From: an uncultured Candidatus Poseidoniales archaeon
Lineage (GTDB): Archaea > Thermoplasmatota > Poseidoniia > Poseidoniales > Poseidoniaceae
Length of the DNA: 62,690 bases
Direction: 5' to 3'
Assembly (NCBI GenBank): GCA_964412625.1
Contig: CAYPPO010000005.1
Span: 1 to 62,690, forward strand
The translations under genes were made by a program, and so were the position numbers. The notes beneath the pieces were generated by a model that worked only from the letters and a program-made list of their open reading frames with translations, did no database searches and was not told where the DNA came from. Below, one piece after another: positions 23,714-55,210 of this stretch (positions are counted from its first letter, which is position 1; the number at the start of each line of letters is the position of its first letter).

Positions 23714-23772
23714 ATATAATTTAATCGAGAAATTATCAAGTGCTGGCTTCCGATGGTAAGGCTGGTGATGGT

Positions 23773-24567: not shown

Positions 24568-24576
24568 GGTAATTAT

Positions 24577-30425: not shown

Positions 30426-31430
30426 TTATCTACGCCTTGATGAATTCATGTCGACTCTACGCATGTTCTTTTTCTTGTCAGACTTCCTTGACCTACCCTT
30501 AGATACAAAATCTTCTTGGCTCAGCCCGCCGAAGGTAATGCTACCTGTTGAAAGTAAGGATTTAGTTAGTTTCTCTGCAACTCGCTCGGATTGAGCACCG
30601 GTTTGCATTTCTTCAGCAACTGCTGCGTTGTGATCAGTTAACCATGATTTCCTCTCCTCACGCACAGATTTTAATTCGTCACGAGCTTTATTGACATCCA
30701 CCATCAATTCCTCAATCTTAGCGTGAACATCATTGGCCTTTTCCTTTAGCTCAACAAATTCAGTATGAAAACGGTCTCCTTCTGCTTTTAAGAAATCGCG
30801 GTGTGCGAATGCCTCATCGACTTCTGGTGTCTTGAGGTTCAATCTTTCCACGGCCTGTATCATCTCGTTGTGTGCAGCGTCTGCCTCAGATTTCAAGGTT
30901 TTAATTGCGGCATCAATATCTGACATATCGACTTCGACCATCTTGAATTTTGTAACCTCTGGTTCTAGTTCTTCTATTCTCTTGGAGAATTCCTTAATTT
31001 TTTTGACCATTTCTTTTTCTTTATTGATGCCAACCGAAGTTGTTTCAAATTTCTTCTCAAGTGAATCAACTTGCTGTTTTAAGTCTGCATACTCTGCTGT
31101 TGCAGAGCGCTTGCTGTTGTGATCTTTCCTTTTTCCCTTGATTTGTGAAATCAAATCTCGCATTTGGCTTTGAATAGTATTCCGCTTTTCTTTAAAGGAT
31201 TTTATTTCGGCGCGCATTGCTCTAACTTCGGCTACCAACAACTCTATTTTCCCACGATGCTCTTTGTACTGAGACTGCACTGAATTTCTTTTTTCAGCAG
31301 AAACTTTGGCCTGAGCATTGAAATTATTTCTGGTTTCACGCATCTTGCGAACTTTTGTTTCCATCGCATGGAGTCTTTCACGTAAGTCTGCATCTGGCCT
31401 TTCATCACCGTCATTCAGTCTACCGCGCAT
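30426..31430 (-). CDS. Archaeal coiled-coil protein (COG1340-like)
   Basis: Heptad-rich throughout; RNNFNAQ, SLEKKFETTSVGINKEKEMVKKIKE and ADAAHNEM patterns. Confidence 0.75.
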   Translation of the reverse strand: MRGRLNDGDERPDADLRERLHAMETKVRKMRETRNNFNAQAKVSAEKRNSVQSQYKEHRGKIELLVAEVRAMRAEIKSFKEKRNTIQSQMRDLISQIKGKRKDHNSKRSATAEYADLKQQVDSLEKKFETTSVGINKEKEMVKKIKEFSKRIEELEPEVTKFKMVEVDMSDIDAAIKTLKSEADAAHNEMIQAVERLNLKTPEVDEAFAHRDFLKAEGDRFHTEFVELKEKANDVHAKIEELMVDVNKARDELKSVREERKSWLTDHNAAVAEEMQTGAQSERVAEKLTKSLLSTGSITFGGLSQEDFVSKGRSRKSDKKKNMRRVDMNSSRRR

Positions 31431-33885: not shown

Positions 33886-36384
33886 TTAGGATGAACTAAA
33901 GACATTTTTACATGCTGGACATCTTACAGAACCTTCGTAGGATTCTGGAATACGTAAACTTTGAGAACATTCTGGACAAGAAATTTCTATCTTCCCGTCA
34001 TTCTTTACCGGGACCTCTTTATCAGGTATTTCGCTTTCAGTTTCTTCATCTTGTACTTCAGTGCCTGCACCGACTTCAAAACTATTCGAGCAATCAGGGC
34101 ACTTAACCGAACCTTGATAATTCTCTGGAACTCTTAGTTGTCTTGAGCAAACTGGACAACTAATTTCTATTTTTACGTCTGACAGCTGTGTTGTCTCGGG
34201 TTTAGATGATTGTTTTTTTGGCTTGTTTCTTGGTTGCTTGTTAGAATCCCCTTTAATTCTTACAGCGAGGATTATCAAGGCAGAAATTGCGAGGCCACCT
34301 AAAATTCCAGACCATGGAATTGAAATTTCTTCTTTCGATTCTTGCACAGTAATTGAAGACAGGAAATTTTGCTCAACGATTTTTGATTCACCATCATAAT
34401 CCCACTTTGCGGTCAATTTAACCTCATCTGTTTCGGGCCACGCAAAACTGAGTGTTATTGTCTGGGATGATCCGGCACTTAATGTTGGAGTAATAGTTTC
34501 GGCTAGCATAGTCCCGTCTTCTTTATTGTAAATGATTAATATTCCAGCAGATCCATCGATATTGCCTTGATTTTGAATCGAAACAGATACACTAGCTGAT
34601 TCACCAGCTGTTGGCCTGTTCGGGTTTGATTGCGAATTAAATACCATATTATATTCTGGCCTTTCTTGCGGTATCGATTTGGTAAATGATGTAAATGATG
34701 AAGCTGCGGTCCAATTTATTTCTTGAACCCTAATAATAACATAATCTCCATCCACAAAGCCGAAATTTATCGAACCTATTGTCTGACCCTCGTTTATTAG
34801 CATGTCAACATCATAGACGAAGATATCCTGTAAACCACCACCATAACCTAATTTGACATTTATTTCACGGTCTATTCCACTACTCAAATTCAAGGACCAG
34901 TGTGCAGTTAATCCGTCCTCAGTTGTCCAAGAGATATCATAGAGCGATAGTTCAAGGCTCTGTCGAACTGAGATTGGTAATGAAATTGTACCATTTATTC
35001 CATCCTCGACCTCTCCATCTGTAGTATATAGTGACCAATTGAATTGCTCATTCCCAGAATTCAGTAATGGAACAGTAATCGTTACTTCTCCTGCTTGATC
35101 AGGTTGAAGCGCGACTAAATTTCCTTGGTAATTTTCTGAGGATGATTCCATTCTCAAAGTCACGTTGCCTTGTTTTGTTCCTGTGTTACGAACTAATAGT
35201 GAAAAGGTTGCATCATCTCCTACATGCCAAGGGCCATCGGTCGCTGATGGACTGAAACTACCGGCGTATTCGAATAACGCTGATTCAACATCGAAAAGTA
35301 TGGATATATTGTTCAATGAATTTTCATCTATTCTTTGACCAGTAAAGTAACAAACAAGTTCGCCTGGTTTAATTGTTACAGAAAAATTGGCTGTTTCTGA
35401 GGTCGAACTAGAAATATCTACAGTTGAGTTATAGACTAACTCATCATTCAACATACAGTTTTGTGCACCCGTAAAGTCTACTGTTCCATTGTTGTAATTT
35501 GTCAAATAAATTTCCAGAGATTCACCCGAGATCAACTCATTGTCGTAATAATTTATCCAAGTTGATAATAGCGGAAGTGGAGGAGGATTTACTGGTTTTG
35601 TGAAATTTTGGTAATTATCGATGATATAATCATCAATCAAACCGCCGAGGCTAATTGAAACCGAGAATAATCCCTCAAAAACTTGAATTGTTGAATTAAA
35701 GACAACTATCTGTGTATTCATACCCATGATAACCAATGTAGGTGATGTTTGCACATCAATACTAATCCCATTATCGATCACTAAAGTTATATTACCTGTC
35801 CAATTATAATCTCCGTCATTTATTATGGGAATTTGGAATTGAACATAATCGCCGTCGCTCAATGAATTATTACCAGTAATAGCACCTGTTGAATCCACTG
35901 ATTCAGCCAGTATAGAAGAACTGGCAGCAATTGAAACATTCAACGGTTTTAATCGATGAATTGTTCTTTGAAAACTCAATAATTCATTACTTGATTCTAC
36001 GCCTAAATCACCAGACAAAACTACCGATATGGTAGTGTAGCCATAACTTAGTGTTGAGAAATTATAGATTATTGATTCAACACCTCCTTCTTCTAAAGAA
36101 TAATTAATCGAGGAGTTAGACAAAAGAGTACCATCGATTGCTGATGTTTCAAAATGTATTTGCCCAACAAAATTTTGTCCTGATCCCTGATTGGTTGCTG
36201 TTAAGTTAAATTCTAGATTATAGTAAGAGTTGTCTGTAGTTTCAAAATTTTCTAGGTTTATTGAATTCCCATCAATGGTAACCCCTGACTGTGTTGCTGC
36301 AACTTGAGGGGTAGGAATGATGAAAAAAAAAGCAACCATGATAGTCAGAACAGCAACTCTGACGCAGTTACTCTCACCCGCCAT
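33886..36384 (-). CDS. Secreted CARDB/Ig-like repeat protein with TM helix and two cytoplasmic zinc ribbons
   Basis: Signal peptide (start taken at ATG 36384), repeated N-x-G CARDB-like strands, TM WSGILGGLAISALIILAV, then two CPxC-x15-CPxC units. Confidence 0.8.
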   Translation of the reverse strand: MAGESNCVRVAVLTIMVAFFFIIPTPQVAATQSGVTIDGNSINLENFETTDNSYYNLEFNLTATNQGSGQNFVGQIHFETSAIDGTLLSNSSINYSLEEGGVESIIYNFSTLSYGYTTISVVLSGDLGVESSNELLSFQRTIHRLKPLNVSIAASSSILAESVDSTGAITGNNSLSDGDYVQFQIPIINDGDYNWTGNITLVIDNGISIDVQTSPTLVIMGMNTQIVVFNSTIQVFEGLFSVSISLGGLIDDYIIDNYQNFTKPVNPPPLPLLSTWINYYDNELISGESLEIYLTNYNNGTVDFTGAQNCMLNDELVYNSTVDISSSTSETANFSVTIKPGELVCYFTGQRIDENSLNNISILFDVESALFEYAGSFSPSATDGPWHVGDDATFSLLVRNTGTKQGNVTLRMESSSENYQGNLVALQPDQAGEVTITVPLLNSGNEQFNWSLYTTDGEVEDGINGTISLPISVRQSLELSLYDISWTTEDGLTAHWSLNLSSGIDREINVKLGYGGGLQDIFVYDVDMLINEGQTIGSINFGFVDGDYVIIRVQEINWTAASSFTSFTKSIPQERPEYNMVFNSQSNPNRPTAGESASVSVSIQNQGNIDGSAGILIIYNKEDGTMLAETITPTLSAGSSQTITLSFAWPETDEVKLTAKWDYDGESKIVEQNFLSSITVQESKEEISIPWSGILGGLAISALIILAVRIKGDSNKQPRNKPKKQSSKPETTQLSDVKIEISCPVCSRQLRVPENYQGSVKCPDCSNSFEVGAGTEVQDEETESEIPDKEVPVKNDGKIEISCPECSQSLRIPESYEGSVRCPACKNVFSSS
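33900..34173 (-). repeat. Tandem duplicated zinc-ribbon coding unit (about 94 bp x2)
   Basis: KIEISCPVCSRQLRVPENYQGSVKCPDC (34080-34173) versus KIEISCPECSQSLRIPESYEGSVRCPAC (33900-33993). Confidence 0.85.
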
Positions 36385-36473
36385 AGTTGGCTCAATTAGT
36401 TGAGGTTCTTGACCTTCGCGCAAAATCAAACATCTGCGCCATGTTTTTCAACATTGAATTTCACCCACTGCAC

Positions 36474-37163
36474 ATGACCCCCGAGGACTTATTGCGTGTT
36501 GAGCCTGAAGTCCTTGCAAAACTAATACTTCATAAAAGAGAGAGGATTTCCCACACCCTGCCAAAAATGCTCGAGTCGGTAGGTACAGAAAAGCAGACTG
36601 CGGAGCAACTCGCTCGTCGGTCACGGGATAAAAAAGCAGATATTGAACCAAAATTCAACAACCTGATCAAAGAGCGTAATGAGCTAACAAATTCAATTCC
36701 TCAAGAATTTAACTTAGGAGTTATGAATGCTACTGAGTTAAATGATTTCAACCAATTGTTGTCCCGGATTCAATCAGAAAAAACAACTCCGGACGAATTT
36801 TTACAATATCTCAAGAAATTATCTAACATTTGTTCTCAACACGGGTTTGAACTCGAAACATTGAGGAATTATAATTCTTCAATCAAGGCAAATCAGGCGC
36901 TCTCAGAATTATCTAACGATTACAAATTGGCCATGAGTAATTGGAATGAAAATGAATCTCACAGACGTAAGTTAGAATCAAAATTTACCAAATTGTCGGC
37001 AAATTTGAAAAATTCTGACGTGGCTATAGCATATTGGCAAGAAAAACTGAATTCCAATTTTGATGAACTACTGATTGATGCAAAACGAGTTGCCGATGGT
37101 GGCCCATCTAGCAGACAATTATCCCGAAACAAGAAACGAAGTAACAATCAAAGGGGGAGTTAA
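36474..37163 (+). CDS. Hypothetical coiled-coil protein
   Basis: Helical, heptad-rich. Start taken at ATG 36474 (TTTTTCAA box 23 nt upstream). Stop is 1 nt before the nucleotidyltransferase start. Confidence 0.7.
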   Translation: MTPEDLLRVEPEVLAKLILHKRERISHTLPKMLESVGTEKQTAEQLARRSRDKKADIEPKFNNLIKERNELTNSIPQEFNLGVMNATELNDFNQLLSRIQSEKTTPDEFLQYLKKLSNICSQHGFELETLRNYNSSIKANQALSELSNDYKLAMSNWNENESHRRKLESKFTKLSANLKNSDVAIAYWQEKLNSNFDELLIDAKRVADGGPSSRQLSRNKKRSNNQRGS

Positions 37164-37164
37164 T

Positions 37165-39231
37165 TTGTTGACTAATTTCGAGAACCAGAATATCGATATG
37201 AAGTATCTGAACAATTACTCATATGTCAAGGACGTAATCAACCAAGATTATCGGTTTAACAATGTAGTCGAAGATGACGAATACGTTGGAAATCTCGAAC
37301 GACAAATCCAGAAATTCGTCGAGACCCAAACCATAACTAAGCCTTTGACAAATAGAAGGAATGGTATTATCAAACATCTAAGAAAAATCCTGACAAACAA
37401 ATTCCAGACAGCTAAATTGTCATCCTTTGGTTCGTTTGAATCAGGATTAAGCCTCTCATTCGGAGACATTGACTTATGCCTTGAATTTGATGGTGGGGCG
37501 CCAAAAAATGTACTAAAAAAGATTGCTCGCATGCTAGATGAAGATGGAATGAACGATGTTAAAATAATCACTAATGCTAAAGTTCCAATTGTGAAATGTA
37601 TCGATGGTAAATCAAAGATAGCAATCGACATATCGGTAAATAACAATCTATCAGTGTACAATACAGAATTGCTCAGACGGTACAATAAACTAGATGCTCG
37701 AGTTAAACCATTTATCTTAGCGATAAAATATTGGGCGAGGAGTCGGGGTATTTGTGAACCAACATCGGGTACATTTTCTTCGTATGCTTGGACATTGATA
37801 GCTATCAATGCACTACAAACGATGGAAAACCCGGTGATTCCTAACTTAACCCCAAAAGACGGCCGCCAGGCAGTAACAATAGAAGGGAAGAAATTCGACA
37901 TATCGATGTTGGATGTAGAAAATATCAATTTCATCTCTAAAAATGCAGATACTACCGCAGAATTAATCATTAAATTCTTTTCTTACCTTGCACTCAAGTG
38001 GCCATGGAATGACTCCGTTATTTCTGTAGGCAGTGGCAGGTTGTTATCAAGGAAACAGAAAAACTGGGAACACCAAAAGCCGTATATCAACACCGTGATT
38101 CAAGAAAAAAAACCAGTTCGTGTTGGTAAACATCCGCTACCAGTAGAGGATCCATTTGATCAATTACATGACTTGAGCGTAGTATTGGATGCAGAGGGCG
38201 TTTTCGAGATAAGAGATGAGGTGCTAAGAGCTCATGCGTTAATTCACGAATCAAATGATTGGGCCACAATTTGTCAAATAAAATACCCAGAACTATCTTA
38301 TGGCACACCTCAATTGGATTTGTTTGAAGATTTAAGAAGTAAAAATGAATCTGAAATTAAAGAAGAATTGCAAGAGCTTTTTTCACATCTAAATCGAGTA
38401 GAAAAAAGTGTATCTGTACGAGAAAGCGAAAGAAATGATGCAATTAGAATGTCAAAAGCCCTAAGAAAAAATGCTGAATTAGCTAGAGAACAGGCATCAC
38501 TGTCATCCGAACTAAAACCAAGAAGGTCGAAAATTCATGAACTACAGAGTAAACGAGACCTAAGCAACAATCATTACATTCCAGTTCATTTTATTGAAGA
38601 GGAATTACAGCGGGTCTATTATGCTCTGAGTCAAGAAGCTGAAACCGGCATAGAATTGTCTTTTGAAAAGGAGAAGTATTTGTTTTCTTGGTTTTTTGAG
38701 TTACAAAGTATGCATAAGCATGCAAAATTAACTAGAAAATACCACCGTGAATTCCTTAAATTAGTTAACCAACAGGAGCAATCCATTGAGCACATCAGTA
38801 GCATCCGTGAAGGAATTATCAACGTCTCCAACCTTGGAACATTTACTCAATTTGATGACTTAGCAAGGCGTTTACTTGCAGAGTTGAATCCGCTAAAAAA
38901 AGAGCGAAGAAGGCTCCGAAGAGAAATCGGTCGGTTGGAGGCATGGCTAAGAAAGCTTAACTTCACTGAGAAAAATCGCACGTCAAGCAAGAAACGGTTC
39001 AACAAAAGCAGGAAATCCCACAGTGCGATAACTGAAGTCAAAAATAAAGTGATATCCGGTGATTCTTTTTCATTACAGGACCTAGATATATTACTGAAAA
39101 ATGGTGGCATTAATTCGGTCGATAAGCAAACCGCTAATACACACAAAACCAACACCAAATCGAGGAAAAATAAACCATCGCTTCAACCGCACAGAGGTAA
39201 AAGAGGGAAATCCGCAAAAAATAGTCAATAA
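37165..39231 (+). CDS. Eukaryote-like Cid1/TUT4-7/TRF4-family terminal nucleotidyltransferase (NTase + PAP-associated domain) fused to a COG1340-like coiled coil
   Basis: FGSFESGLSLSFGDIDL (Asp at 37465 and 37471), AKVPIVKC, IDISVNN (Asp 37627), NTELL, IKYWARSRGI, GTFSSYAWTL, LIIKFFSY and NRM VEDPFDQLHDLS (His 38167). Start likely TTG 37165/37168 after GGGGAG, or ATG 37198. Confidence 0.88.
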   Translation: MLTNFENQNIDMKYLNNYSYVKDVINQDYRFNNVVEDDEYVGNLERQIQKFVETQTITKPLTNRRNGIIKHLRKILTNKFQTAKLSSFGSFESGLSLSFGDIDLCLEFDGGAPKNVLKKIARMLDEDGMNDVKIITNAKVPIVKCIDGKSKIAIDISVNNNLSVYNTELLRRYNKLDARVKPFILAIKYWARSRGICEPTSGTFSSYAWTLIAINALQTMENPVIPNLTPKDGRQAVTIEGKKFDISMLDVENINFISKNADTTAELIIKFFSYLALKWPWNDSVISVGSGRLLSRKQKNWEHQKPYINTVIQEKKPVRVGKHPLPVEDPFDQLHDLSVVLDAEGVFEIRDEVLRAHALIHESNDWATICQIKYPELSYGTPQLDLFEDLRSKNESEIKEELQELFSHLNRVEKSVSVRESERNDAIRMSKALRKNAELAREQASLSSELKPRRSKIHELQSKRDLSNNHYIPVHFIEEELQRVYYALSQEAETGIELSFEKEKYLFSWFFELQSMHKHAKLTRKYHREFLKLVNQQEQSIEHISSIREGIINVSNLGTFTQFDDLARRLLAELNPLKKERRRLRREIGRLEAWLRKLNFTEKNRTSSKKRFNKSRKSHSAITEVKNKVISGDSFSLQDLDILLKNGGINSVDKQTANTHKTNTKSRKNKPSLQPHRGKRGKSAKNSQ

Positions 39232-39243
39232 AGTGATTGTGTT

Positions 39244-39717
39244 ATGAAATTAAAATGGATTTTAGGCCCTAGGCCTGAGAATATGTCACAACATTGGCAA
39301 GCGAAAGTAACCGAACTCTTCAAACAAGAAACCGGAGAAACTTACACCGAGACAACCTTCAGAATGCTCGGAATTCCGGAATGGTATGGAAATAAACTTC
39401 TGATAGATACTGCCATTTATCCATCACCAGATTCATTATTTGGTGTAATGTGGTCCAAACCATTACTTGACGATCGAATTCGGATTGTCGCACTCGTAAT
39501 TGATAAGCAAGCACAGAACAACAATTACGGCACTGATATAATCTCGGAATTAATCAATACATCAAAAAAAACTGGGAAAAATCACATTCAGTTAGAAGTG
39601 CGGAAATCAAATCACAGAGCGCAGAATTTTTACTCGCGACACGGGCTGAAAATAGAAAGAACCATTCAAAATTATTACTCCAATGAGGATGGTTTTGTGA
39701 TGTGTGGTAAACTGTGA
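39244..39717 (+). CDS. GNAT N-acetyltransferase (RimI/Ard1-like)
   Basis: IVALVIDKQAQNNNYG (acetyl-CoA loop), LEVRKSNHRAQNFYSRHG and NYYSNEDGFVM. Confidence 0.85.
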   Translation: MKLKWILGPRPENMSQHWQAKVTELFKQETGETYTETTFRMLGIPEWYGNKLLIDTAIYPSPDSLFGVMWSKPLLDDRIRIVALVIDKQAQNNNYGTDIISELINTSKKTGKNHIQLEVRKSNHRAQNFYSRHGLKIERTIQNYYSNEDGFVMCGKL

Positions 39718-39756
39718 CTGTGATTACAATTATACACCTCACCGATATGACAATCC

Positions 39757-40089
39757 ATGGAGGAGTTTGTCGTTTCTGATTTGAGTGACTCTGAGTACAT
39801 ATTTAGTGCTGCAATATTAGATGATCAAGGTTTCATAAAAACATCAAACCCTGAAGATTCCAAGACGAAGGAACGATTGGCAAAATTTGCTGAAGTACTA
39901 TATGCATCAGATGATTTTGAAAAAACCACAATTATTACTGAACACCGTATTTTAGTAATTCACAGATTGGTTAGAAATTTTACGTTAGTAGTCGAGTGTT
40001 CAACAGATTCAAATTTAGGCATGATACGTGACGAGGTTACCGACGCAGTGACCCGCTTAGACACTTACTTTAATTCGACATCGAGGTAA
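39757..40089 (+). CDS. Roadblock/LC7-like small protein
   Basis: SAAILDDQGFIKTS near the N-terminus, and TLVVECSTDSNLGMIR...AVTRL C-terminal helix typical of Roadblock/MglB domains. Confidence 0.65.
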   Translation: MEEFVVSDLSDSEYIFSAAILDDQGFIKTSNPEDSKTKERLAKFAEVLYASDDFEKTTIITEHRILVIHRLVRNFTLVVECSTDSNLGMIRDEVTDAVTRLDTYFNSTSR

Positions 40090-40182
40090 TTAACGTATAT
40101 ATGCTGTCAATCGTCAATATCAAGCATTAAATGGGGGATATAGGTCCCAAGGACAGTGTAAGGTGGGAATCTTGCACACAAG

Positions 40183-41070
40183 GTGAGTATTGTAATGAGT
40201 GAAATTAATCAAATTCTTGAACAAAAAAAGAATATGGTAAATGAAAAAGCAACAAAATTTCGTGAAACAAGAGATGAATGGAACAAGAAATCCAAAACAC
40301 ATTCCACCGCAAGAAACGAATTAAATGCTGAAGTTAAGGAATTGATTGTCCAAGTAAGAGAGCAACGTGAAATTAGAGAACAAATGAACGAAATTGTCCG
40401 TGAAAAGAAAACGGTCAGACAAGAAGCAAATTCTGCAGTAAAAGAGATTAAATCCCGAATAGAGTCCAGTAGAGGCCCAGTTGAGCAAGATAACTCCCGA
40501 GGCAGGCGAGGGCAAAGACCCGTTACATCTCACCAACTCAGGCGAGAACTTGAAAGACTTGAAAGAGAATTTGAGCAAGGCAGACATACTGGTAAGAACG
40601 AAAAGAAAGTTATGAAAAGAATGAAAGAAATCAGTTCAAAACTAAAGCAAATGACGACAATCGATGAAGGTAATGAAGACATGAAGGGCCTAAGAATTGA
40701 ATTGAAGTCCGCTCTTGAAAAGCAAGAGGAAGCCCATGAAGAAGTGCAAAATGCAGCAAACGCTGCACAAGAGGCACATGAACTGATGCTACAGTGGAAC
40801 AAAGAAGTTGACAAACAAAGAGACAAGGCTGAATCTTGTCATAGAGAATTACGTAAGTCAAAGAAAGAAGCAGATAAGGCTCATCACTTATACATAGTTT
40901 CGTTACGTTGTTTGCACTCTATTCAAGACATGATTTCAGCAATGTCTGGAAGTGAAGAAACCACTGGAAAATCCGAAGCAAGAGTCGAAGTTCAGGATTT
41001 GATGACTAAACTAATGTCTGGTGACACATTGTCTACTGAAGAACTAATGCAGCTGCAGAAATTTGATTGA
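40183..41070 (+). CDS. Archaeal coiled-coil protein (COG1340-like)
   Basis: RDEWN, RNELNAEV, LERLEREFEQ...NEKKVMKRMKE, AQEAHELM, ADKAHH and C-terminal KLMSGDTLSTEELM. Confidence 0.8.
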   Translation: MSIVMSEINQILEQKKNMVNEKATKFRETRDEWNKKSKTHSTARNELNAEVKELIVQVREQREIREQMNEIVREKKTVRQEANSAVKEIKSRIESSRGPVEQDNSRGRRGQRPVTSHQLRRELERLEREFEQGRHTGKNEKKVMKRMKEISSKLKQMTTIDEGNEDMKGLRIELKSALEKQEEAHEEVQNAANAAQEAHELMLQWNKEVDKQRDKAESCHRELRKSKKEADKAHHLYIVSLRCLHSIQDMISAMSGSEETTGKSEARVEVQDLMTKLMSGDTLSTEELMQLQKFD

Positions 41071-41104
41071 AACATGATACATAGTAGAGTCGCATTAAAG
41101 ATAG

Positions 41105-42271
41105 GTGTTCAGTATGATAGGCAAGGACGATATTGCGTTGATTGTTGAGGAGTATGACCGTTTAAAATTACGAATTGGAATGACGGCATCTCATTCTGCA
41201 CTTGACATTTGTGATGGGGCAATAGAAGAAGGGTTTCCAACTGTAGCCTATTGCAAAGAGGGGCGTCACAAAACTTATGCAAATTATTTCAAGACACACC
41301 GAACCGGCTCTGGTAGAGTAAAACGTGGAATGGTTGACAAAACAATCATCATGCCTTCATTTAATGATGTAATGCAAGAGAGTATGCAAGTCGAAATGCG
41401 AAAAAGAAATGTTGTCTACATCCCTAACCGATCATTTACTTCATATTCAACAATTGATGATGTAGAAAATAACTTCCATGTTCCCTTATTTGGCTCAAGA
41501 AACATGCTAAGGATGGAAGAAAGAACTGAAGAACAAGATTATTACTGGATTCTAGAGAAAGCAGGATTGCCGTTTCCTGAAGCCATTCATAACCCTGAGG
41601 AAATCGACTGCTTAGTAATTGTAAAGCTTCATCATGCACAGAAAAAACTAGAACGGGGATTCTTCACCTGTGCATCTTATCAAGAGTATACCGAAAAATC
41701 CCAAGAACTCTTGAAAACGGGGATTATTGATCAAACATCATTAGACGGTGCTCGAATTGAAAAGTACGTTATTGGACCTGTTTTCAACCTAAATTTCTTT
41801 TACAGCCCATTATCAGACGAAGGAGAAAAATTGGAACTGCTTGGTGTTGATTGGCGCTTTGAATCGTCACTAGATGGGCATGTTAGGTTACCCGCTCCTC
41901 AACAAATGACAATGCCATTACATCAACAAATTCCTGAAATGACAGTGGTTGGACATAACACGGCAACAATTAGAGAATCGCTATTAGAGAAGGCGTTTGA
42001 ACTCGGCGAGAAATTTATCAAAGCAAGCAAAGAGTATTATGATCCGGGGATAATTGGTCCATTTTGTCTACAAACCTGTATTGACAAAGATATGAACTAT
42101 TACATCTATGATGTTGCTCCAAGGCTAGGAGGTGGCACAAATGTACATGTCAACGTTGGACATCCATATGGAAATGCAACCTGGAGAAAACCAATGTCAA
42201 GTGGCAGGCGAATTGCGATGGAATTGCGCATGGCTGCTGAACAAGATCGCTTATTAGAAGTATTAACTTGA
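41105..42271 (+). CDS. PurP-like formate--phosphoribosylaminoimidazolecarboxamide ligase family protein (ATP-grasp)
   Basis: ASHSALDICDGAIEEGF, IPNRSF, PLFGSRNMLR, RGFF, IGPFCLQ and DVAPRLGGGTN. Likely ATG start at 41114. Confidence 0.88.
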   Translation: MFSMIGKDDIALIVEEYDRLKLRIGMTASHSALDICDGAIEEGFPTVAYCKEGRHKTYANYFKTHRTGSGRVKRGMVDKTIIMPSFNDVMQESMQVEMRKRNVVYIPNRSFTSYSTIDDVENNFHVPLFGSRNMLRMEERTEEQDYYWILEKAGLPFPEAIHNPEEIDCLVIVKLHHAQKKLERGFFTCASYQEYTEKSQELLKTGIIDQTSLDGARIEKYVIGPVFNLNFFYSPLSDEGEKLELLGVDWRFESSLDGHVRLPAPQQMTMPLHQQIPEMTVVGHNTATIRESLLEKAFELGEKFIKASKEYYDPGIIGPFCLQTCIDKDMNYYIYDVAPRLGGGTNVHVNVGHPYGNATWRKPMSSGRRIAMELRMAAEQDRLLEVLT

Positions 42272-45778: not shown

Positions 45779-46126
45779 TCATTCTATGTTAGAATCTAGA
45801 GATAGAATGTCACTATCCCCACCTTCTATTATGGTAATTGTTGATACTGCAAATGGTTTACCACAAGCAATTCCTAGTTCTCGGTTGACCAGCATAGCTC
45901 GATATTTGATTACGCTAGGGTGGCTGGCATGTAAGTTATCGATATACTCTTGCGGGCAATTTGCTGCAAGAATTATCATCTTGGCTTCACCGGATGCGCA
46001 TGCATCTAATGCTTGGCGTTGTCCAAATAATAGTTTACCAGTTGCTATTGCTGTCTTTAATTGTCTACTTAAATCCATATTTTTTCCTCCATACTCCACT
46101 TTGTTTCTCATGGTTGGAATAATCAC
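45779..46126 (-). CDS. rpl30e: 50S ribosomal protein L30e
   Basis: [18 protein letters not shown] and [13 protein letters not shown]; downstream of rpoA''. Confidence 0.93.
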
Positions 46127-47694
46127 TCCTCAGGTATGTAATATAACTCTACACTACCAGTTCCGAGAGATATTGGCTGACCGACAATGATGTTTTCTGC
46201 CACACCAGTTAATTGATCTCTCTCTCCAATGATACCCGCTTTCAATAAGTGATTAACAGTGACTTCGAATGCAGCACGGGCAAGAATACTGTGCTTCGTG
46301 CCTGAAACACCGTGCCTACCAATTGCTCTAACTTCTCCTTCAGAAGTCATTACATCTGCAACTAGTAGTAAGTGCCTAACATCTACTTCCAACCTAGCGC
46401 CGTCTAGAGTTGCTTGTAATTCGTTGACAATCGCTTGTCTGGCTGCTTCGATTCCTAAGTATTCGTAGATTTCAATAATGTTGTTGGTGTATGTTCTACT
46501 TCTGTCGATGGTTTCGATTTCGCTAACTCTTGACAAGTTGGAACCAATTGTTGACAGATAATATTCTCCGGTTTTATCGTCTAGTTGAACGTTGGCTCTC
46601 TCGACATTTGGGATACCCTTCAATCGTAGGTCTCTAATTTTCTCCTCGAGTTGTAGTAGCATTGTGTAAGATGGTGGGTTTTCAGCAAGTTCTGCTAAAT
46701 CTTCCTCAGAGTGAACTCCTGGAATCATGGTCAATTTAGACGCCTTATTGCCGTCTTTGTCTGCTTGTACATACAATCTAGTTGCTTGTTCCAATTTGTC
46801 CTTGACCTCTGATGCAGTCATATTCTTTTGCTTAAGATTGGATTTGTTTAGTTTCAAGACAAGCCTTCTCTGAGCAACATCTGTTTCTAAACTGGCAATG
46901 CCAACGGTTGTAGTAACTTCGATTGCGGCTGCAAGTTTTTGTGCCTCTTCAGCCGATGTCCTCTTGTCTGCTGTTAATCTGATTGTCATTGTAGGTGTTT
47001 GAGGAACTTTTCTAGCATCGACTATTTCGATGATTCTTGGAAGACCTTGAGTAACGTTTACTGTAGCTACACCCGCATAGTGGAAAGTACGCATGGTCAT
47101 CTGTGTACCTGGCTCACCAATTGATTGGGCGGTAATGATTCCTGCTGCTTCATAAGGATCGATGCTGGCCCTCTTCAGTGCAAAGATTGCCTCTTGAACT
47201 ACTTTCTTTGCTTGTGGTTTGGTTAGTTTCTTCTTGCCACGGGCATGGATTGCAGTAGTTAGGTCATGGAAAATTCTGTTGGTAAATCTTCTAGAGCCTG
47301 ATTCTTCGACTGCGGCAACCAGACTCTGGTAAACTGGATCATCAGAAAGTTCATCCTCGAGACTGATTAGTTTGGCATCGGCGTTGTAGGTGTCGATGTC
47401 TGCTGTAGGTTTCACTCTAGAGCGAGCTCTCTTTCTCCCGGTTCTACTGAGTCTGACAGATGTAACCGGGCCAATTGCTTCATTATTGGCCAATTTGTTC
47501 TTCTGATTTGCGCCATCAATAATGCCCTTAATTTGAGTAGCAGTTTCTGAATCGGTTTCGCAAATCTGTGCGATGTTCTCGGTCGGTAGGATTTTAACAT
47601 CATCCCATTTCCTATCATCGGCTAGTATATGCGCAAAGTTCTCTGCAATACCTAAGTCCATTAGCTTCTTTTTAGTTGCACTCTTTACTACCAT
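46123..47694 (-). CDS. rpoA2: DNA-directed RNA polymerase subunit A'' (Rpo1C) with N-terminal HhH-like extension
   Basis: [12 protein letters not shown]-like [43 protein letters not shown] and ARAAFEVT. Confidence 0.96.
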
Positions 47695-50600
47695 CAGTTG
47701 TCCCCTCCATCGTTATTTGATTCCTCGAATTCCCAAGCACCCATATCTTCTTCGCTTTCATCTCGATCTCGAGATTTACGCTCAACGATTGTTGCGCCTT
47801 CAGTTCCAAGGGCTTCATCAACGATTACATCGATGTTAAATGGTGATCCATGCACACCCCTAGATGGGTCAATGCCATCTTCGCCATAACTGAACTGGAT
47901 GATACGGTTTGCTGTGTTTCTTACCGACAACATCTCATCATCATAGACTTTCAAATCATCCATAGCATTGATCAGTCTTCTCTGCATGTAACCCGATTTA
48001 GCAGTTCTAACCGCTGTATCAACTAATGATTCTCTTCCTGATACTGATAGCATGAAGAACTCTGTTGGTTCAAGACCACGCTTGAAAGAGTTCGAGATGA
48101 ACCCCCGATCAAGAGCACCGCGACCGCCTCTCTTGAAATGGGCCAAGACTCTATCATTATATCCTCTCTCTAATCGCTTGCCACGAACCTTCGCTTGACC
48201 GATAGAACCAGCCATCATAGTCAAATTGTCCATTGAACCTCTTGCACCAGATATAGCCATGTTAACTGCTGCGTTTGTAGATCCAGATTGATTTAGTTCA
48301 TCCTTAGCAATGTCACCAGCTTTTTGCTTACCTTCATCGAGCATGACCATGATATTTTCCTCGAGAGTTTCTCGCGGAGTTCTTCCTGGTCTAGTTTCAT
48401 ACCCTTTACCGTCTTTACCGAATGCTGCAAGTTCTTCTTCGACTAACTTTCTAGCATCAGCGTTAGCTTGCTCGATTGCATCGAGAGATTGGGGAGACAA
48501 ATCTTCATCGTCGATACCTGTGGTGAATCCTAAAGCAGTACATGCTGCTATAGATAACTGAGTGAATTCATCAAGGAATTTAGCACCCTGTTCAGGACCA
48601 TTTGTCTGAACAATTGCGTCGAGCAATCTTCCATCCTCAGCACCAATTGCTCTCTTGTCCAGAGTACCTTCAACGCTACCATTTTTAACAACTACATCAT
48701 CGTTTGAACGACTTCTAAATCTCAAGTGTATGTTATCTGGTATAATCAGCGAAATGATATCTTGACCTCTGAAACTATCCCGACCATTTTCATCTTTGAC
48801 GACTTCGGGTAGTGAGCCAGTCCATCCTATGTTTCCTAGCATCTCCAAACCGTGTTCGACTGAAATTAGCGTACCTGGTCTAGATAGTAGGTAAGCACCG
48901 GAAATGTGGTCGTGAATACCGCCGATTACTGCACCGCCATATCTTGGAGTCAAGATGTGCTCTTGTACTCTCATCAAAATCTTCGCCTCTGCTCTTGCCT
49001 CTTCAGACTGAATCACGTGAAGGTTCATTTCATCGCCATCAAAGTCAGCGTTATATGGCGTACAAACAGCCAAGTTAAACCTAAACGTGTGACCCTGCAT
49101 TACTCTAACCTCGTGAACCATCATCGACATCCTGTGCAATGAAGGTTGTCGATTGAAAATCGCAACATCACCGTCGATTAAATGTCGCTCGACAAGCATA
49201 CCAGGTTTTGGGTTTCCATCTCTATCAAAGGTTGAAAGCCTATCTTCGACTGTAGTTCTTTCGCCCCATTCATCTGAAGGACTACCACAGTGAGGGCAAG
49301 TGATTTCCAGATGTTCTGGAAGTGGATCACGGTTCACCTTGTCAAGTTGCTCTAATTCCCACATCCACTTGTAATGTAGGATAGCTCGTGGGTCATCTTT
49401 TTCCAGTGCGTTACCGTTGACATCTTCCCCGCGTAGGTTTGCGAGTGTCGCGTTATCATCAGCAACATAATTTGTCACCTCAATGCTTGGATCGACGACA
49501 GATCGGCTAATTTCTTTCTTGATAACTAACCCGGGTAAGAAATTTGGTGCAGGCATTACTTGATGTAAGTCAGGCCTCATGGTTGTTTCTTCCATACATT
49601 CAGGATTGTGGCATCTAAATCCTGCGTTAATTAGTCGGCTTCTGGAATTAATTCTGACTCTTCGCTTATCTCCGCGGATGATATAGTTGACACCAGGATG
49701 TACATCCGGCCCTCTTAGAATCATCTGCCGCATTTGCTCTCGGTTTCTCATAGTAACTCTAATCGGTACCGTAAGTTCTCTAGCAATCTTCTCTGGAACT
49801 CCGACTTCATTGACACCAAGATATGGATCTGGCGAGATTACAGAACGTGCACAGAAGTTGACACGCTTACCTGAGAGGTTGCTTCGGAATCTACCTTCCT
49901 TACCCTTCAATCTCTGAGTTAGAGTCTTGAGTGTTCTTCCTGAACGATGTCTTGCAGGTGGAATTCCGGAGGTTTGGTTGTCGAAGTAAGTGGTAACGTG
50001 GTACTGTAACAACTCCCACAAATCCTCAACAATCAACTGTGGAGCACCAGAATCTCTGTTTTCCCTTAGTCTTTGATTGATACGCAGAACGTCGACTAGT
50101 TTGTGAGTTAAGTCATCTTCTGAGCGGTCACCACTATCTAAGGTAATGGATGGCCTAACGGTAATAGGTGGAACTGGTAGTACTTTCAACACAGTCCACT
50201 CCGGTCTGTTTTGAGTATCCATTCCGATGAATATCAGGTGTTCCACTGGAATACTACTCAACCATTCTCTTACATCCCTTGGATTCAATTTTCTTTCAGT
50301 TTCTTTACCGGTGCCTTGAGTCTCAAGTTTTTCTTTGAAAGTAGTTGGCTTATCTAGAGTTATTTTTCCTTGAGCGGCGCCACAGTGCATACAGACTTTT
50401 CTCTTGGCACCTGAAGTAACCTTCTCAATTTCTTTGATAATCTTAGAGAATTCTGTTGAGCCCACACCGTGTTTTAAGATAATATCGCGAACTCTTGTTC
50501 GGTAGTAATCTTGCTCACTCAGTTCTGGATTTGAAGGGTGAGTGTTTGGCTCATCGTGCAGTAGAATTTTGCTACATGAATTACATGTAGCTTTGAGAGC

Positions 50601-54499: not shown

Positions 54500-54510
54500 G
54501 ATTATCCCTC

Positions 54511-55161: not shown

Positions 55162-55210
55162 GCCAGACCCCTCAAACACCCGCAACATGCTAGACCGGCA
55201 GCGAATCAGG

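What the first reader, a model, noticed from the sequence alone, without database searches (positions are those of the whole stretch)
37165..39231. Eukaryote-type terminal uridylyltransferase (Cid1/TUT4-7-like) in an archaeon: candidate RNA 3'-uridylation system
Seen: every hallmark of the TRF4/Cid1 non-canonical poly(A)/poly(U) polymerase family, in order: FGS-x3-G-x5-GDID, AKVPIVK, IDISVNN (third Asp), NTELL, IKYWARSRGI, GTFSSYAWTL, LIIKFFSY, ISV, and the nucleotide-recognition loop VEDPFDQLHDLS. Known: in S. pombe Cid1 (EDPFEISHNVG) and human TUT4/7 (EDPFDLNHNLG) the His in this loop selects UTP; adenylating members lack it. Here the His is present (38167-38169) and the following Asn is Asp. 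These enzymes mark RNAs for decay and restrict viral and retroelement RNA in eukaryotes. I know of no described archaeal member; known archaeal tailing is exosome-made and A-rich. The gene is intron-free, overlaps no other credible gene, is tightly coupled to archaeal-style neighbours, and is fused to an archaeal coiled-coil domain, which argues for a domesticated gene rather than contamination. Inference: this lineage uridylates RNA 3' ends.
Basis: partly seen in the sequence, partly recalled or inferred. Interest (0 to 1): 0.92.

Follow-up and report, generated by a model that had tools for sequence, protein, structure and literature searches.

The report
Eukaryote-type RNA uridylyltransferase in marine archaea
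A marine planktonic archaeon (Marine Group IIa) carries an intact, long-resident copy of the enzyme family that eukaryotes use to add U tails to RNA, fused to a long coiled coil, which suggests but does not prove that these archaea tag RNA 3' ends with uridines.

Summary
Gene 37165-39231(+) encodes a 688-aa protein. Residues ~45-380 are a complete Cid1/TUT4-7/URT1-type terminal nucleotidyltransferase (Pfam PF22600 2e-30, PAP_assoc above cut-off). The best solved relative is Arabidopsis URT1 (E 6e-46), and the AF2 model superposes on it at TM 0.85. All catalytic and UTP-contact residues are present, including the PUP-type loop D329-x2-D332-x2-H335.

It is not contamination. The window is archaeal core chromosome (RNase P RNA, rpoH-B-A'-A'', FttA). 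Orthologues occupy the same syntenic slot in at least 81 GTDB species, in single-cell genomes and on 1.5-2.2 Mb contigs. Every carrier I could classify is MGIIa (Poseidoniaceae); none is MGIIb.

The archaeal proteins form one clade, 28-38% identical to eukaryotic TUTases and nearest the URT1/TUT4-7/Cid1 branch. This points to one ancient eukaryote-to-archaeon transfer.

Residues 385-688 are a conserved antiparallel coiled coil with a basic tail and no known family. The gene is translationally coupled to a DUF7121-like coiled-coil gene, followed by a RimI-like GNAT, a Roadblock-like protein and another DUF7121.

U-addition and its biological role are inferred, not shown. About 12% of orthologues have Arg instead of the His. 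I found no paper describing this protein.

The parts
36441..37163 (+). Upstream partner gene 'up240' (240 aa from ATG 36441; longest ORF from 36387): a divergent DUF7121-like coiled-coil protein with a basic tail, translationally coupled to the TUTase.
   Evidence: The stop TAA at 37161-63 lies one base before the TUTase start. An upstream ORF of this family was found in 75 of 87 loci; the window itself is among the 9 scored absent, only because of the position cut-off in my script. In 65 of the 75, its stop overlaps the first start codon of the TUTase reading frame by 4 nt. hhalign against the downstream DUF7121 gives 90-94% probability. Pfam calls the orthologue DUF7121 in L087 and L090.
37153..37159 (+). 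Shine-Dalgarno-like GGGGGAG upstream of the TTG start.
   Evidence: Read directly from the sequence.
37165..39231 (+). TUTase gene, 688 aa, TTG start, TAA stop.
   Evidence: (P0001 is 100% identical at 688 aa).
37297..38304 (+). Catalytic module (aa 45-380): Pol-beta NTase palm inserted in a PAP/OAS1 substrate-binding domain.
   Evidence: Pfam PF22600, PF01909 and PF03828. URT1 alignment over 94-406 in 718-aa numbering. Foldseek to URT1 7xs4, TMt 0.85.
37426..37473 (+). hG[GS] (G89-S90) and DxD (D101, D103) catalytic motifs.
   Evidence: D101 and D103 are each conserved in 258 of 260 orthologues and G89/S90 in 259 of 260. They correspond to Cid1 S90/D101/D103 (PMC5689010).
37624..37644 (+). 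Third catalytic Asp strand, IDISVNN (D155).
   Evidence: Aligns with URT1 D547, the position mutated to Ala in the crystallised protein. Conserved in 259 of 260 orthologues.
37660..37785 (+). NTP-contact residues N166/T167, K188 and S205-S206-Y207.
   Evidence: They are equivalent to URT1 N558 (binds uracil O2) and Y599 (stacks on the base), and to Cid1 N171/T172, K193 and S211/Y212. Each is conserved in 258-259 of 260 orthologues, except T167, which is Thr or Ser.
38143..38178 (+). Nucleotide-recognition loop VEDPFDQLHDLS, with cluster D329-x2-D332-x2-H335 (His codon 38167-38169).
   Evidence: It matches the PUP-type 'DxxD/ExxH' cluster of PMC5689010. URT1 H714 hydrogen-bonds to uracil O4. 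Across orthologues: His 226, Arg 32, Leu 1, Val 1 of 260.
38317..38982 (+). C-terminal long antiparallel coiled coil (aa 385-606) with conserved motifs DLFEDLR, MSKALRKNAEL, YIPVHFIE, SWFFELQSMH and REIGRLEAWLR.
   Evidence: Alignments A1 and A2. AF2 models predict helices 395-467, 500-550 and 560-606 with pLDDT about 80-95. No Pfam family. Foldseek returns only generic coiled-coil hits.
39055..39108 (+). Conserved C-terminal helical motif SGDSFSLQDLDILLKNGG (aa 631-648).
   Evidence: G632, S636, L637, D639, L640, L643, L644, G647 and G648 are invariant in A1. The motif aligns with the C-terminal SGDTLSTEELMQL of the DUF7121 neighbour at P 0.002-0.005.
39118..39228 (+). Lys/Arg-rich, low-confidence tail ending in a conserved PHRGKRGKS.
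   Evidence: Residues 601-688 are 25% K+R and 7% D+E. pLDDT is below 50. Conserved R677, G678, R680, G681.
39244..39717 (+). RimI-like GNAT acetyltransferase, immediately downstream.
   Evidence: Pfam Acetyltransf_1 at 1.7e-9. TIGR01575 rimI at 2e-17, below its cut-off. Present directly downstream in 64 of 87 loci by my script (17 more had enough flank but no qualifying ORF), overlapping the TUTase stop by 4 nt in 18.
39757..40089 (+). 110-aa protein, possibly Roadblock/LC7-like.
   Evidence: Three of four orthologues hit Robl_LC7 weakly (E 0.0015-0.1); the window copy does not. Found downstream in 59 loci.
40183..41070 (+). DUF7121 coiled-coil protein (295 aa).
   Evidence: Pfam PF23435 at 1.6e-17. 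Present downstream in 78 loci. JGI names it 'uncharacterized coiled-coil DUF342 family protein'.
41105..42271 (+). PurP (FAICAR synthetase; DUF1246 + DUF1297), the last gene of the conserved same-strand block. Probably unrelated in function.
   Evidence: Synteny.
30426..31430 (-). Third DUF7121 paralogue nearby (334 aa).
   Evidence: Pfam DUF7121 at 5.9e-5, below the gathering score. The same gene is present in L001 and L004-L006. hhalign against the downstream paralogue gives 95% probability.

Best explanation
The gene encodes an active, template-independent RNA 3'-terminal nucleotidyltransferase of the eukaryotic Cid1/TUT4-7/URT1 branch. It most likely adds uridines. An ancestor of Marine Group IIa (Poseidoniaceae) acquired it once from a eukaryote, and it has been kept since at a fixed chromosomal position.

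Mechanism, by analogy with solved Cid1 and URT1 structures:
- D101, D103 and D155 hold two Mg2+ ions. These activate the RNA 3'-OH to attack the alpha-phosphate of UTP.
- N166 and H335 read uracil O2 and O4.
- Y207 stacks on the base.
- D329 and D332 complete the PUP-type recognition loop.

The added 300-aa C-terminal module is an antiparallel coiled coil, a short conserved helical motif and a basic tail. With the translationally coupled DUF7121-like protein, it is inferred to provide dimerisation or partner binding and RNA or target recruitment, as cofactors do for eukaryotic TENTs.

Shown here: family, fold, residue conservation, synteny, distribution and monophyly. Inferred: activity, UTP preference, RNA targets, the complex with neighbours, and what a U tail would do downstream (decay mark, or 3'-end protection through Sm-like proteins).
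For: - Family and fold: Pfam PF22600 2e-30, PAP_assoc 38 bits above cut-off. PDB sequence search gives URT1 6e-46, TUT7 and TUT4 about 1e-40, CutA 5e-37, Cid1 1e-35, far above Gld2 3e-23, TUT1 1e-16, MTPAP 1e-13 and Trf4 2e-9.
- Structure: Foldseek top 50 are all TENTs, with URT1 at TMt 0.85.
- Residues: each catalytic and NTP-contact residue is conserved in 258-260 of 260 unique orthologues (T167 is Thr or Ser), and the His in 226.
- Residue roles come from URT1 and Cid1 papers (PMC9561377; PMC5689010; PMC6240794).
- Residency: the window has archaeal RNase P RNA, rpoH-B-A'-A'' and FttA. The same gene order holds down to 30-36% identity, including Ca. Poseidonia alphae and 1.5-2.2 Mb contigs. 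There are 81 GTDB species hits, including two single-cell genomes and the 2012 MG-II chromosome CM001443.1.
- Coupling: a 4-nt overlap with the upstream gene in 65 of 75 loci, and an SD-like element plus TTG start in the window.
- Single origin: in an exhaustive HMMER search of 1.84 billion representatives, the archaeal clade is separated by a gap (6e-57 to 3.5e-47) from eukaryotic hits of several supergroups at 28-38% identity. NJ monophyly is 44 of 50 bootstraps.
- Subfamily placement: eukaryotic TUTs score the archaeal domain (164-175 bits) between Cid1/CutA and Gld2.
Against: - There is no biochemical or transcriptomic evidence; everything functional rests on analogy.
- 12% of orthologues carry Arg at the His position, as C-preferring CutA does. 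One has Leu and one Val. In URT1 itself H714A only partly reduces activity, so the His predicts specificity but does not guarantee it.
- One orthologue (P0180) has lost all three Asp residues yet keeps full length and synteny. P0069 lacks the first Asp. These hint at a non-catalytic role as well.
- No U-tail reader was identified here.
- The window's protein has Val at position 339, where most orthologues have Arg.
- The direction and donor of the transfer rest on similarity ranks and an NJ tree without outgroups.
Confidence: 0.62

Rival explanations
1. It is an active RNA tailing enzyme, but its physiological product is not U. [quoted passage not shown]
For: CutA is among the close solved relatives (5e-37). 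Arg replaces the His in 32 of 260 orthologues in at least three lineages, and Arg at this position is the hallmark of CutA's ExxNxxR cluster. Known TUTases deviate from the rule: HESO1 has Val.
Against: The window's own protein has the full DxxDxxH cluster that PMC5689010 assigns to PUPs, not the D/ExxXxxN of PAPs. It lacks the Arg four residues downstream that stabilises ATP in PAPs (V339). The nearest relatives (URT1, TUT4/7, Cid1) all add U.
Confidence: 0.2
2. Catalysis on RNA 3' ends is not the main role. The protein may act chiefly as a coiled-coil scaffold with the DUF7121 proteins. Alternatively it may nucleotidylate something else, such as a protein or small molecule, or make oligonucleotide signals like OAS/cGAS, which share the PAP/OAS1 fold.
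For: The C-terminal half is as conserved as the catalytic half. A catalytically dead orthologue is retained in synteny. The gene sits among three DUF7121 coiled-coil genes, a GNAT and a Roadblock-like gene, none of which has a known RNA role.
Against: The catalytic triad and the base- and ribose-contact residues are kept in about 99% of 260 orthologues. That is not expected for a scaffold. No OAS, cGAS or CD-NTase match appears in the PDB sequence search, the Foldseek top 50 or PADLOC. The best matches are RNA-tailing enzymes only.
Confidence: 0.1
3. Artefact: a eukaryotic or viral fragment mis-assembled or mis-binned into an archaeal contig.
For: The family is otherwise eukaryotic. The local GC (0.37-0.38) is below the window mean of 0.42.
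Against: The low GC spans the whole 33.9-42.3 kb block, including clearly archaeal genes. The gene order is identical in more than 80 independent MAGs, in single-cell genomes and on contigs up to 2.2 Mb. The gene overlaps its archaeal neighbours by 4 nt. There are no introns. No viral relative was found in IMG/VR, INPHARED or BFVD.
Confidence: 0.01
4. Evolutionary rival: the archaeal clade is ancestral or sister to the eukaryotic family rather than derived from it, so the transfer ran from archaea to eukaryotes or the family is vertically inherited.
For: The archaeal clade is not nested within any sampled eukaryotic lineage in the unrooted NJ tree. The nearest eukaryotic hits come from several supergroups with similar scores.
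Against: The gene was found only in one family of one archaeal order. Its similarity is graded: URT1/TUT4-7 at 141-161 bits, Cid1 127, Gld2 86, Trf4 40. This is the pattern of a member of one eukaryotic sub-branch, not of an outgroup to all of them. From general knowledge, eukaryotic paralogues are thought to predate LECA.
Confidence: 0.04

Closest known systems
Arabidopsis thaliana URT1 (UTP:RNA uridylyltransferase 1; PDB 6L3F, 6L8K, 7XS4)
   Same: It is the best solved match (E 6e-46, about 30% identity, Foldseek TMt 0.85). It shares the catalytic Asp triad, N558/Y599/H714 equivalents (N166/Y207/H335) and even the H-D-L sequence after the loop.
   Different: URT1 has a long disordered N-terminal region. 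I did not test for it; this is from general knowledge. It has no C-terminal coiled coil. It is eukaryotic, monocistronic, and acts on oligoadenylated mRNAs and miRNAs. The archaeal protein has about 300 extra C-terminal residues and sits in an operon.
Human TUT4/TUT7 (ZCCHC11/ZCCHC6) catalytic module
   Same: E about 1e-40. It has the same fold and the DxxExxH-type recognition loop. Long metazoan TUT4/7-like proteins are among the nearest database neighbours.
   Different: TUT4/7 are 1500-1650 aa, with an inactive N-terminal NTase copy and CCHC zinc knuckles. None of these is present here.
Schizosaccharomyces pombe Cid1 poly(U) polymerase
   Same: E 1e-35. S90, D101, D103, D160, N171/T172, K193, S211/Y212 and D330/E333/H336 all have equivalents.
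   Different: Cid1 is a minimal enzyme of about 400 aa. The middle acidic residue of its loop is Glu, whereas it is Asp here. Position 339 is Val in the window protein, where Cid1 has R340.
Fungal CutA (C/U-adding enzyme)
   Same: E 5e-37. The 12% of MGIIa orthologues with Arg at position 335 share CutA's terminal Arg.
   Different: CutA's cluster is ExxNxxR. The window protein has DxxDxxH, and the Arg variants have DxxDxxR.
Prokaryotic RNA 3'-tailing systems: archaeal exosome/DnaG heteropolymeric A-rich tails, bacterial PAP I and PNPase, class I and II CCA-adding enzymes
   Same: They also add non-templated nucleotides to RNA 3' ends. CCA enzymes and PAP I share the Pol-beta NTase palm.
   Different: They belong to different families and have different accessory domains. 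No CCA enzyme or PAP I appears among the sequence or fold matches. None is known to make U tails (general knowledge). MGII genomes carry a separate class II CCA-adding enzyme (supplement of PMC9723583).
DUF7121 (apparently COG1340, a conserved archaeal coiled-coil family of unknown function)
   Same: The neighbours up240, 40183-41070 and 30426-31430 belong to or resemble this family. The TUTase C-terminus shares a 26-residue terminal motif with it.
   Different: No Pfam hit for the TUTase C-terminal module. The profile-profile probability is only 7-13%. The family's function is unknown.

Membership tests
Cid1/TENT non-canonical ribonucleotidyl transferases (Pol-beta NTase palm + PAP/OAS1 substrate-binding domain) | Catalytic motifs hG[GS], [DE]h[DE]h and h[DE]h | tested here: met
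   G89-S90, D101-I-D103 and I-D155-I are present. Each residue is conserved in 258-259 of 260 orthologues.
Cid1/TENT non-canonical ribonucleotidyl transferases (Pol-beta NTase palm + PAP/OAS1 substrate-binding domain) | PAP-associated / PAP-OAS1 SBD domain above the curated threshold | tested here: met
   PF03828 scores 38.3 bits against a 22.6-bit cut-off, and PF22600 scores 106 against 27. PAP_assoc hits 13 of 13 diverse orthologues.
Cid1/TENT non-canonical ribonucleotidyl transferases (Pol-beta NTase palm + PAP/OAS1 substrate-binding domain) | Bilobal fold superposable on solved members | tested here: met
   The AF2 model has pLDDT 80-94 over most of the domain. Foldseek gives URT1 TMt 0.85, TUT7 0.84 and Cid1 0.71-0.79.
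Cid1/TENT non-canonical ribonucleotidyl transferases (Pol-beta NTase palm + PAP/OAS1 substrate-binding domain) | NTP ribose, phosphate and base contacts (Cid1 N171/T172, K193, S211/Y212) | tested here: met
   N166/T167, K188 and S206/Y207 are present.
Cid1/TENT non-canonical ribonucleotidyl transferases (Pol-beta NTase palm + PAP/OAS1 substrate-binding domain) | Template-independent extension of RNA 3' ends | not testable with these tools
   Needs recombinant enzyme assays.
UTP-selective subgroup (PUPs/TUTases: Cid1, TUT4/7, URT1) | NRM cluster DxxD/ExxH with the inserted His | tested here: met
   D329, D332 and H335 are present in the window; the rule is from PMC5689010. The His is kept in 226 of 260 orthologues and is Arg in 32.
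UTP-selective subgroup (PUPs/TUTases: Cid1, TUT4/7, URT1) | Closer to U-adding than to A-adding members | tested here: met
   URT1 161, TUT7 143, TUT4 141 and Cid1 127 bits, against Gld2 86, MTPAP 54 and Trf4 40.
UTP-selective subgroup (PUPs/TUTases: Cid1, TUT4/7, URT1) | Demonstrated preference for UTP | not testable with these tools
   Needs an assay with all four NTPs.
TUT4/TUT7 orthologous group | CCHC zinc knuckles and a duplicated (inactive N-terminal) NTase module | tested here: not met
   There is no zf-CCHC and no second NTase domain in Pfam scans at E up to 1. It is therefore a relative, not a TUT4/7 orthologue.
[quoted passage not shown] | Sequence or fold affinity to CCA-adding enzymes and their tRNA-binding body and tail domains | tested here: not met
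   No CCA enzyme appears among the 35 PDB sequence hits or the top 50 Foldseek hits. There is no matching NCBIfam model.
CD-NTase / cGAS-OAS signalling synthases | Match to CD-NTase, OAS or Mab-21 models, or to a defence-system context | tested here: not met
   PADLOC gives only a weak generic minimal-NTase hit (E 2.5e-4) and no CBASS components nearby. No OAS or cGAS appears in the fold or sequence hits.
DUF7121 (apparently COG1340) archaeal coiled-coil family, for the C-terminal module aa 385-688 | Profile match to PF23435 or to the neighbouring DUF7121 paralogues | tested here: inconclusive
   There is no Pfam hit at E up to 1 in 13 orthologues. hhalign gives P 0.002-0.011 and probability 4-13%, confined in the larger alignments to the last 26 residues.

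The most novel reading that the evidence does not exclude
MGIIa archaea run a genuine RNA 3'-uridylation pathway, the first in any prokaryote. It would be built from a eukaryote-derived TUTase working in a complex with archaeal DUF7121 coiled-coil proteins, and possibly the GNAT and Roadblock-like neighbours. U tails would mark transcripts for decay, or create or repair the oligo-U 3' ends that Sm-like proteins bind. Some lineages would have retuned nucleotide choice through His-to-Arg changes. Because MGIIb appears to lack the gene, the two abundant sister families would differ in a whole layer of post-transcriptional control.
Probability: 0.3. Interest if true: 0.85.

Novelty: new variant of a known kind. 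Interest (0 to 1): 0.72.

Why it matters
RNA uridylation by Cid1-family enzymes is treated in the literature I could search as a eukaryotic process. Known archaeal tailing is exosome-made and A-rich (general knowledge). An intact TUTase that has been vertically kept for the whole history of one of the ocean's most abundant archaeal families would extend U-tailing to prokaryotes.

It also gives a clean case of ancient eukaryote-to-archaeon transfer of an RNA-metabolism gene. It attaches a first functional lead to the widespread but uncharacterised DUF7121 archaeal coiled-coil family (apparently COG1340).

The claim is directly testable. The enzyme can be made recombinantly, and MGIIa versus MGIIb reads in existing marine metatranscriptomes provide a natural plus/minus comparison. 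The recurrent His-to-Arg changes offer a natural experiment on nucleotide selection.

Tried and rejected
1. Homology of the C-terminal module to its coiled-coil neighbours. BLASTP found nothing. hhalign with small and large alignments gave only a short terminal motif. Pfam found nothing. Not established.
2. Fold search with a separate C-terminal model (pLDDT 80). It returned only generic SMC, SH3BP5 and Rad50-type coiled coils with TM at or below 0.34, and no hit at E 0.001 or better. Uninformative.
3. Viral origin or relatives. The IMG/VR pattern scan, tblastn against INPHARED and BFVD Foldseek all found nothing.
4. Defence-system context. PADLOC was negative apart from coiled-coil noise.
5. 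The first large up240 alignment gave 99.9% probability to DUF7121. That was an artefact, because 23 ORFs were counted in both sets. After separating the sets the probability was still 90-94%, so the homology is kept as probable.
6. A metagenomic near-neighbour on a 31-kb contig (P0143) was checked as a possible second prokaryotic lineage. Its contig carries PsaO and Kelch genes, so it is algal.
7. Literature. Seven searches combining archaea, MGII or Poseidoniales with Cid1, TUTase, uridylation, COG5260 or DUF7121 found no description.
8. Expression evidence in the supplement of an MGII metatranscriptome paper (PMC9723583). The gene was not found in the stored, truncated tables.
9. MGIIb synteny could not be examined.
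10. NJ tree. It has no outgroup sequences (Gld2, Trf4), so nestedness within eukaryotes was argued from bit-score ranks instead.


Full report
**1. The observation**

ORF listing gives one long open frame, 37075-39231 on the + strand (718 aa). No supported competitor exists on either strand.

- It is a TTG one base after the upstream gene's TAA (37161-37163).
- It is preceded by GGGGGAG at 37153-37159.
- It is where orthologues begin (ML-x-x-FE...).
- It gives a 688-aa product identical to database protein P0001.

The His codon is CAT at 38167-38169.

The match is far beyond chance:
- Pfam MTPAP-like_central E 2e-30.
- PAP_assoc 38 bits (cut-off 22.6), NTP_transf_2 above cut-off, TUTase domain 25.6 bits against 25.8.
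- phmmer against PDB sequences: Arabidopsis URT1 6e-46, TUT7 1.5e-40, TUT4 5.5e-40, CutA 5e-37, Cid1 1e-35.

**2. What the protein is**

An AlphaFold2 model built on 12 orthologues (mean pLDDT 74.6; 80-94 over most of the catalytic module) was searched against the PDB. The top 50 hits are all terminal nucleotidyltransferases. URT1 (7XS4) is first at TM 0.85, followed by Cid1, TUT7, CutA, Gld2 and TUT1. No CCA-adding enzyme, OAS/cGAS or CD-NTase appears. PADLOC finds no defence-system family. NCBIfam has no model for this protein, which explains the 'hypothetical' and 'nucleotidyltransferase domain-containing' labels in GenBank.

Residue mapping onto published structure-function work:

| Residue(s) here | Equivalent | Role |
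|---|---|---|
| G89-S90, D101, D103, D155 | Cid1 S90, D101, D103, D160; URT1 D547 | Catalytic centre |
| N166/T167 | Cid1 N171/T172; URT1 N558 | N558 hydrogen-bonds uracil O2 |
| K188 | Cid1 K193 | Phosphate contact |
| S206/Y207 | Cid1 S211/Y212; URT1 Y599 | Y599 stacks on the base |
| D329-x2-D332-x2-H335 | Cid1 D330/E333/H336; URT1 H714 | H714 hydrogen-bonds uracil O4 |

Kobylecki et al. (PMC5689010) propose a rule for the loop cluster: DxxD/ExxH marks poly(U) polymerases, D/ExxXxxN marks poly(A) polymerases, and ExxNxxR marks C-preferring CutA. The window protein is of the first type.

**3. It is a resident archaeal gene**

The window carries archaeal RNase P RNA (948-1244), three tRNAs, the rpoH-rpoB-rpoA'-rpoA'' operon (46123-55188), FttA/aCPSF1 (16133-18037) and a proteasome subunit.

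The first protein search found 182 homologues; the 120 listed are almost all 613-716 aa. They go down to 47% identity and sit on contigs up to 1.8 Mb. The exhaustive search adds more divergent clusters (36-42% identity), among them RefSeq WP_338171946.1 of Ca. Poseidonia alphae.

I inspected gene neighbourhoods in eight divergent lineages. All show the same order:
- CARDB/Zn-ribbon surface protein on the opposite strand
- a 170-290-aa coiled-coil gene (not called in one of the eight, L089, where a 740-nt uncalled gap sits in its place)
- the TUTase
- a GNAT
- a gene of about 105 aa (replaced in L090 by an opposite-strand ATPase-domain gene)
- DUF7121
- PurP

A scan of one genome per GTDB species found 81 relatives. 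All are in Poseidoniales-type MAGs, two single-cell genomes and the 2012 MG-II chromosome CM001443.1. One contig in a 'Salinimicrobium' bin is evidently misbinned.

Across 87 loci, my ORF/HMM script found:
- an upstream partner ORF in at least 75; its stop overlaps the first start codon of the TUTase reading frame by 4 nt in 65
- a GNAT directly downstream in 64
- the small protein in 59
- DUF7121 in 78

. The script's position cut-offs miss some real cases: the window itself is scored as lacking the upstream partner.

The low GC of the gene (0.37-0.38 against 0.42 for the window) is shared by the whole 33.9-42.3 kb block. Contamination or chimerism is excluded.

**4. Distribution**

Every carrier that could be classified is MGIIa:
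- Eleven MAGs are labelled MGIIa in Tully 2019 supplementary table 1 (one of them printed 'MGIa').
- About ten more appear in that paper's MGIIA AAI matrix or in ANI groups with MGIIa MAGs.
- Isolate names include MGIIa-K1, -L1 and -L2.
- NCBI labels say Poseidoniaceae. None says Thalassarchaeaceae, although that taxon exists.

MGIIb MAGs are frequent in the stretches of that table returned by the look-ups. The exhaustive HMMER search shows no additional archaeal-type cluster.

The gene therefore looks specific to Poseidoniaceae. There is a caveat: the DNA pattern used for the GTDB scan was derived from MGIIa sequences, and I could not inspect an MGIIb locus.

**5. Origin**

In the exhaustive search the archaeal clusters (E 1e-236 to 6e-57) are followed, after a gap, by eukaryotic proteins. 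These start at 3.5e-47 and are 28-38% identical among the first ten. Those I named include:
- a mollusc TUT4/7-like protein
- Fabomonas, Filamoeba and Pigoraptor proteins
- a spider TUT4
- a plant URT1-like protein

. One unnamed neighbour lies on an algal contig.

In an NJ tree of 156 catalytic domains the 22 archaeal sequences form one clade (44 of 50 bootstraps). That clade is not nested in any sampled eukaryotic lineage.

Similarity is graded the way it is for eukaryotic members of the U-adding branch:

| Query | URT1 | TUT7 | TUT4 | CutA | Cid1 | Gld2 | TUT1 | MTPAP | Trf4 |
|---|---|---|---|---|---|---|---|---|---|
| Archaeal protein (bits) | 161 | 143 | 141 | 131 | 127 | 86 | 64 | 54 | 40 |

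A plant and an amoebozoan TUTase score the archaeal domain at 164 and 175 bits. That falls between their scores to CutA or Cid1 and to Gld2.

This fits a single old transfer from a eukaryote into the MGIIa stem, followed by divergence. It argues against an ancestral archaeal origin. A rooted tree with all subfamilies is still needed.

**6. Conservation and variants**

Among 260 unique full-length orthologues:
- each of the three catalytic Asp in 258-259; all three together in all but three sequences, one of which only has an ambiguous residue
- G-S in 259
- N166 in 259
- S-S-Y in 258-259
- E328-D329 in 259-260

His335 is kept in 226. It is Arg in 32, in at least three lineages, including P0038, which is 63% identical to the window protein. 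It is Leu once and Val once.

Two exceptions stand out. P0069 has Ala for the first Asp. P0180 has E-G-N for the triad yet keeps full length, the C-terminal module and the syntenic slot.

The catalytic centre is therefore under strong constraint in general. Nucleotide choice may vary among lineages. The protein may also have a non-catalytic function.

**7. The C-terminal module and the neighbours**

Residues 385-688 are as conserved as the enzyme. Conserved motifs include DLFEDLR, MSKALRKNAEL, YIPVHFIE, SWFFELQSMH, REIGRLEAWLR, SGDSFSLQDLDILLKNGG and a terminal PHRGKRGKS.

Both AF2 models predict very long helices (395-467, 500-550, 560-606), a small helical end and a disordered Lys/Arg-rich tail. 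Pfam finds no family. Foldseek finds only generic antiparallel coiled coils.

The upstream partner is a divergent DUF7121-like protein: hhalign gives 90-94% probability, and Pfam calls it DUF7121 in two lineages. With 40183-41070 and 30426-31430, that makes three DUF7121-type genes around the TUTase.

JGI names these 'uncharacterized coiled-coil DUF342 family protein'. From memory, that is the COG1340 label. COG1340 has been described as a highly conserved archaeal family of unknown function (PMC1322226).

The TUTase C-terminus shares only its last conserved motif with DUF7121 (P 0.002-0.005).

The GNAT is RimI-like. The 110-aa protein is weakly Roadblock/LC7-like.

**8. Most likely mechanism**

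Shown here:
- a complete TENT active site with a uracil-reading loop
- fusion to a coiled coil and a basic tail
- translational coupling to a coiled-coil partner

Inferred:
- Two-metal catalysis adds UMP to RNA 3'-OH ends.
- The coiled coil and tail, with the DUF7121-like partner, recruit or position RNA or another target. Eukaryotic TENTs depend on cofactors in a comparable way.
- The consequence of a U tail is open. It could be a decay mark, or an oligo-U end for Sm-like proteins.

I put about 0.97 on family membership, about 0.85 on catalytic activity, about 0.6 on UTP preference for this protein, and about 0.3 on a eukaryote-like decay-marking role.

**9. Novelty**

Reviews I read treat this family and RNA uridylation as eukaryotic. 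Seven full-text searches found nothing on an archaeal or MGII member, on COG5260 in archaea, or on DUF7121. Database pipelines have labelled the proteins generically.

I classify it as a new variant of a known kind. The enzyme family is known. What is new is the domain of life, the C-terminal architecture and the operon.

Noticed in passing
Orthologues P0124, P0125 and P0038 clusters; loci L027, L029, L046, L050, L051, L055, L079: The UTP-selecting His335 is replaced by Arg in 32 of 260 orthologues, in at least three separate lineages, giving DxxDxxR. Arg at this position is the hallmark of C-preferring CutA. One orthologue has Leu (L047) and one has Val (L052).
   Followed up: partly
L087:8001-10082 (protein P0180): This is a catalytically dead orthologue. 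The triad D-D-D has become E-G-N, and G-S, N166, K188 and S-S-Y are also lost. It nonetheless keeps full length, the C-terminal module and the exact syntenic position.
   Followed up: partly
window 30426-31430(-), 36441-37163(+), 40183-41070(+): Three DUF7121-type coiled-coil paralogues lie within 11 kb around the TUTase. The family is conserved in archaea and has no known function.
   Followed up: partly
window 16133-18037(-): FttA/aCPSF1, the archaeal transcription termination and 3'-end cleavage factor (KH_TffA + MBL + beta-CASP + RMMBL), lies 19 kb from the TUTase. It is next to a proteasome subunit (18113-18739).
   Followed up: no
window 1288-6312(-): A 1674-aa ORF with no Pfam match at E 1e-5 or better. 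It lies beside the RNase P RNA gene.
   Followed up: no
window 14533-14610(-): A tRNA-Pro(TGG) is called by ARAGORN but is not reported by Rfam at gathering threshold. The two tRNA-Lys genes are found by both tools.
   Followed up: no
window 23740-25047(+): Adjacent ThyA-type thymidylate synthase and DHFR genes, a bacterial-style pair, in this archaeal genome.
   Followed up: no
L078 (CAXRAI010000081.1): A 59-kb contig binned as 'Salinimicrobium sp.' (Bacteroidota) carries the MGIIa TUTase. It is almost certainly a misbinned archaeal contig.
   Followed up: no
L012 and L013 (MAG NAT37, contigs NZXL01000002.1 and NZXL01000075.1): One MAG carries two copies of the gene on two contigs, both about 49% identical to the window protein. 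This could be strain mixture or a duplication.
   Followed up: no
Supplement of PMC9723583 (SIMO Bin 19-2, gene 425; MG2_0632): MGII genomes are annotated with a class II ('Poly A polymerase head domain', COG0617) CCA-adding enzyme, not the usual archaeal class I type.
   Followed up: no
L089:3818-6091: In this lineage the TUTase is called as 757 aa and no upstream partner gene is called in the 740-nt gap. The partner may be fused, degraded or missed.
   Followed up: no
window 33886-42271: The whole conserved block, from the surface protein to PurP, has lower GC (0.37-0.40) than the rest of the window (0.42-0.46).
   Followed up: partly
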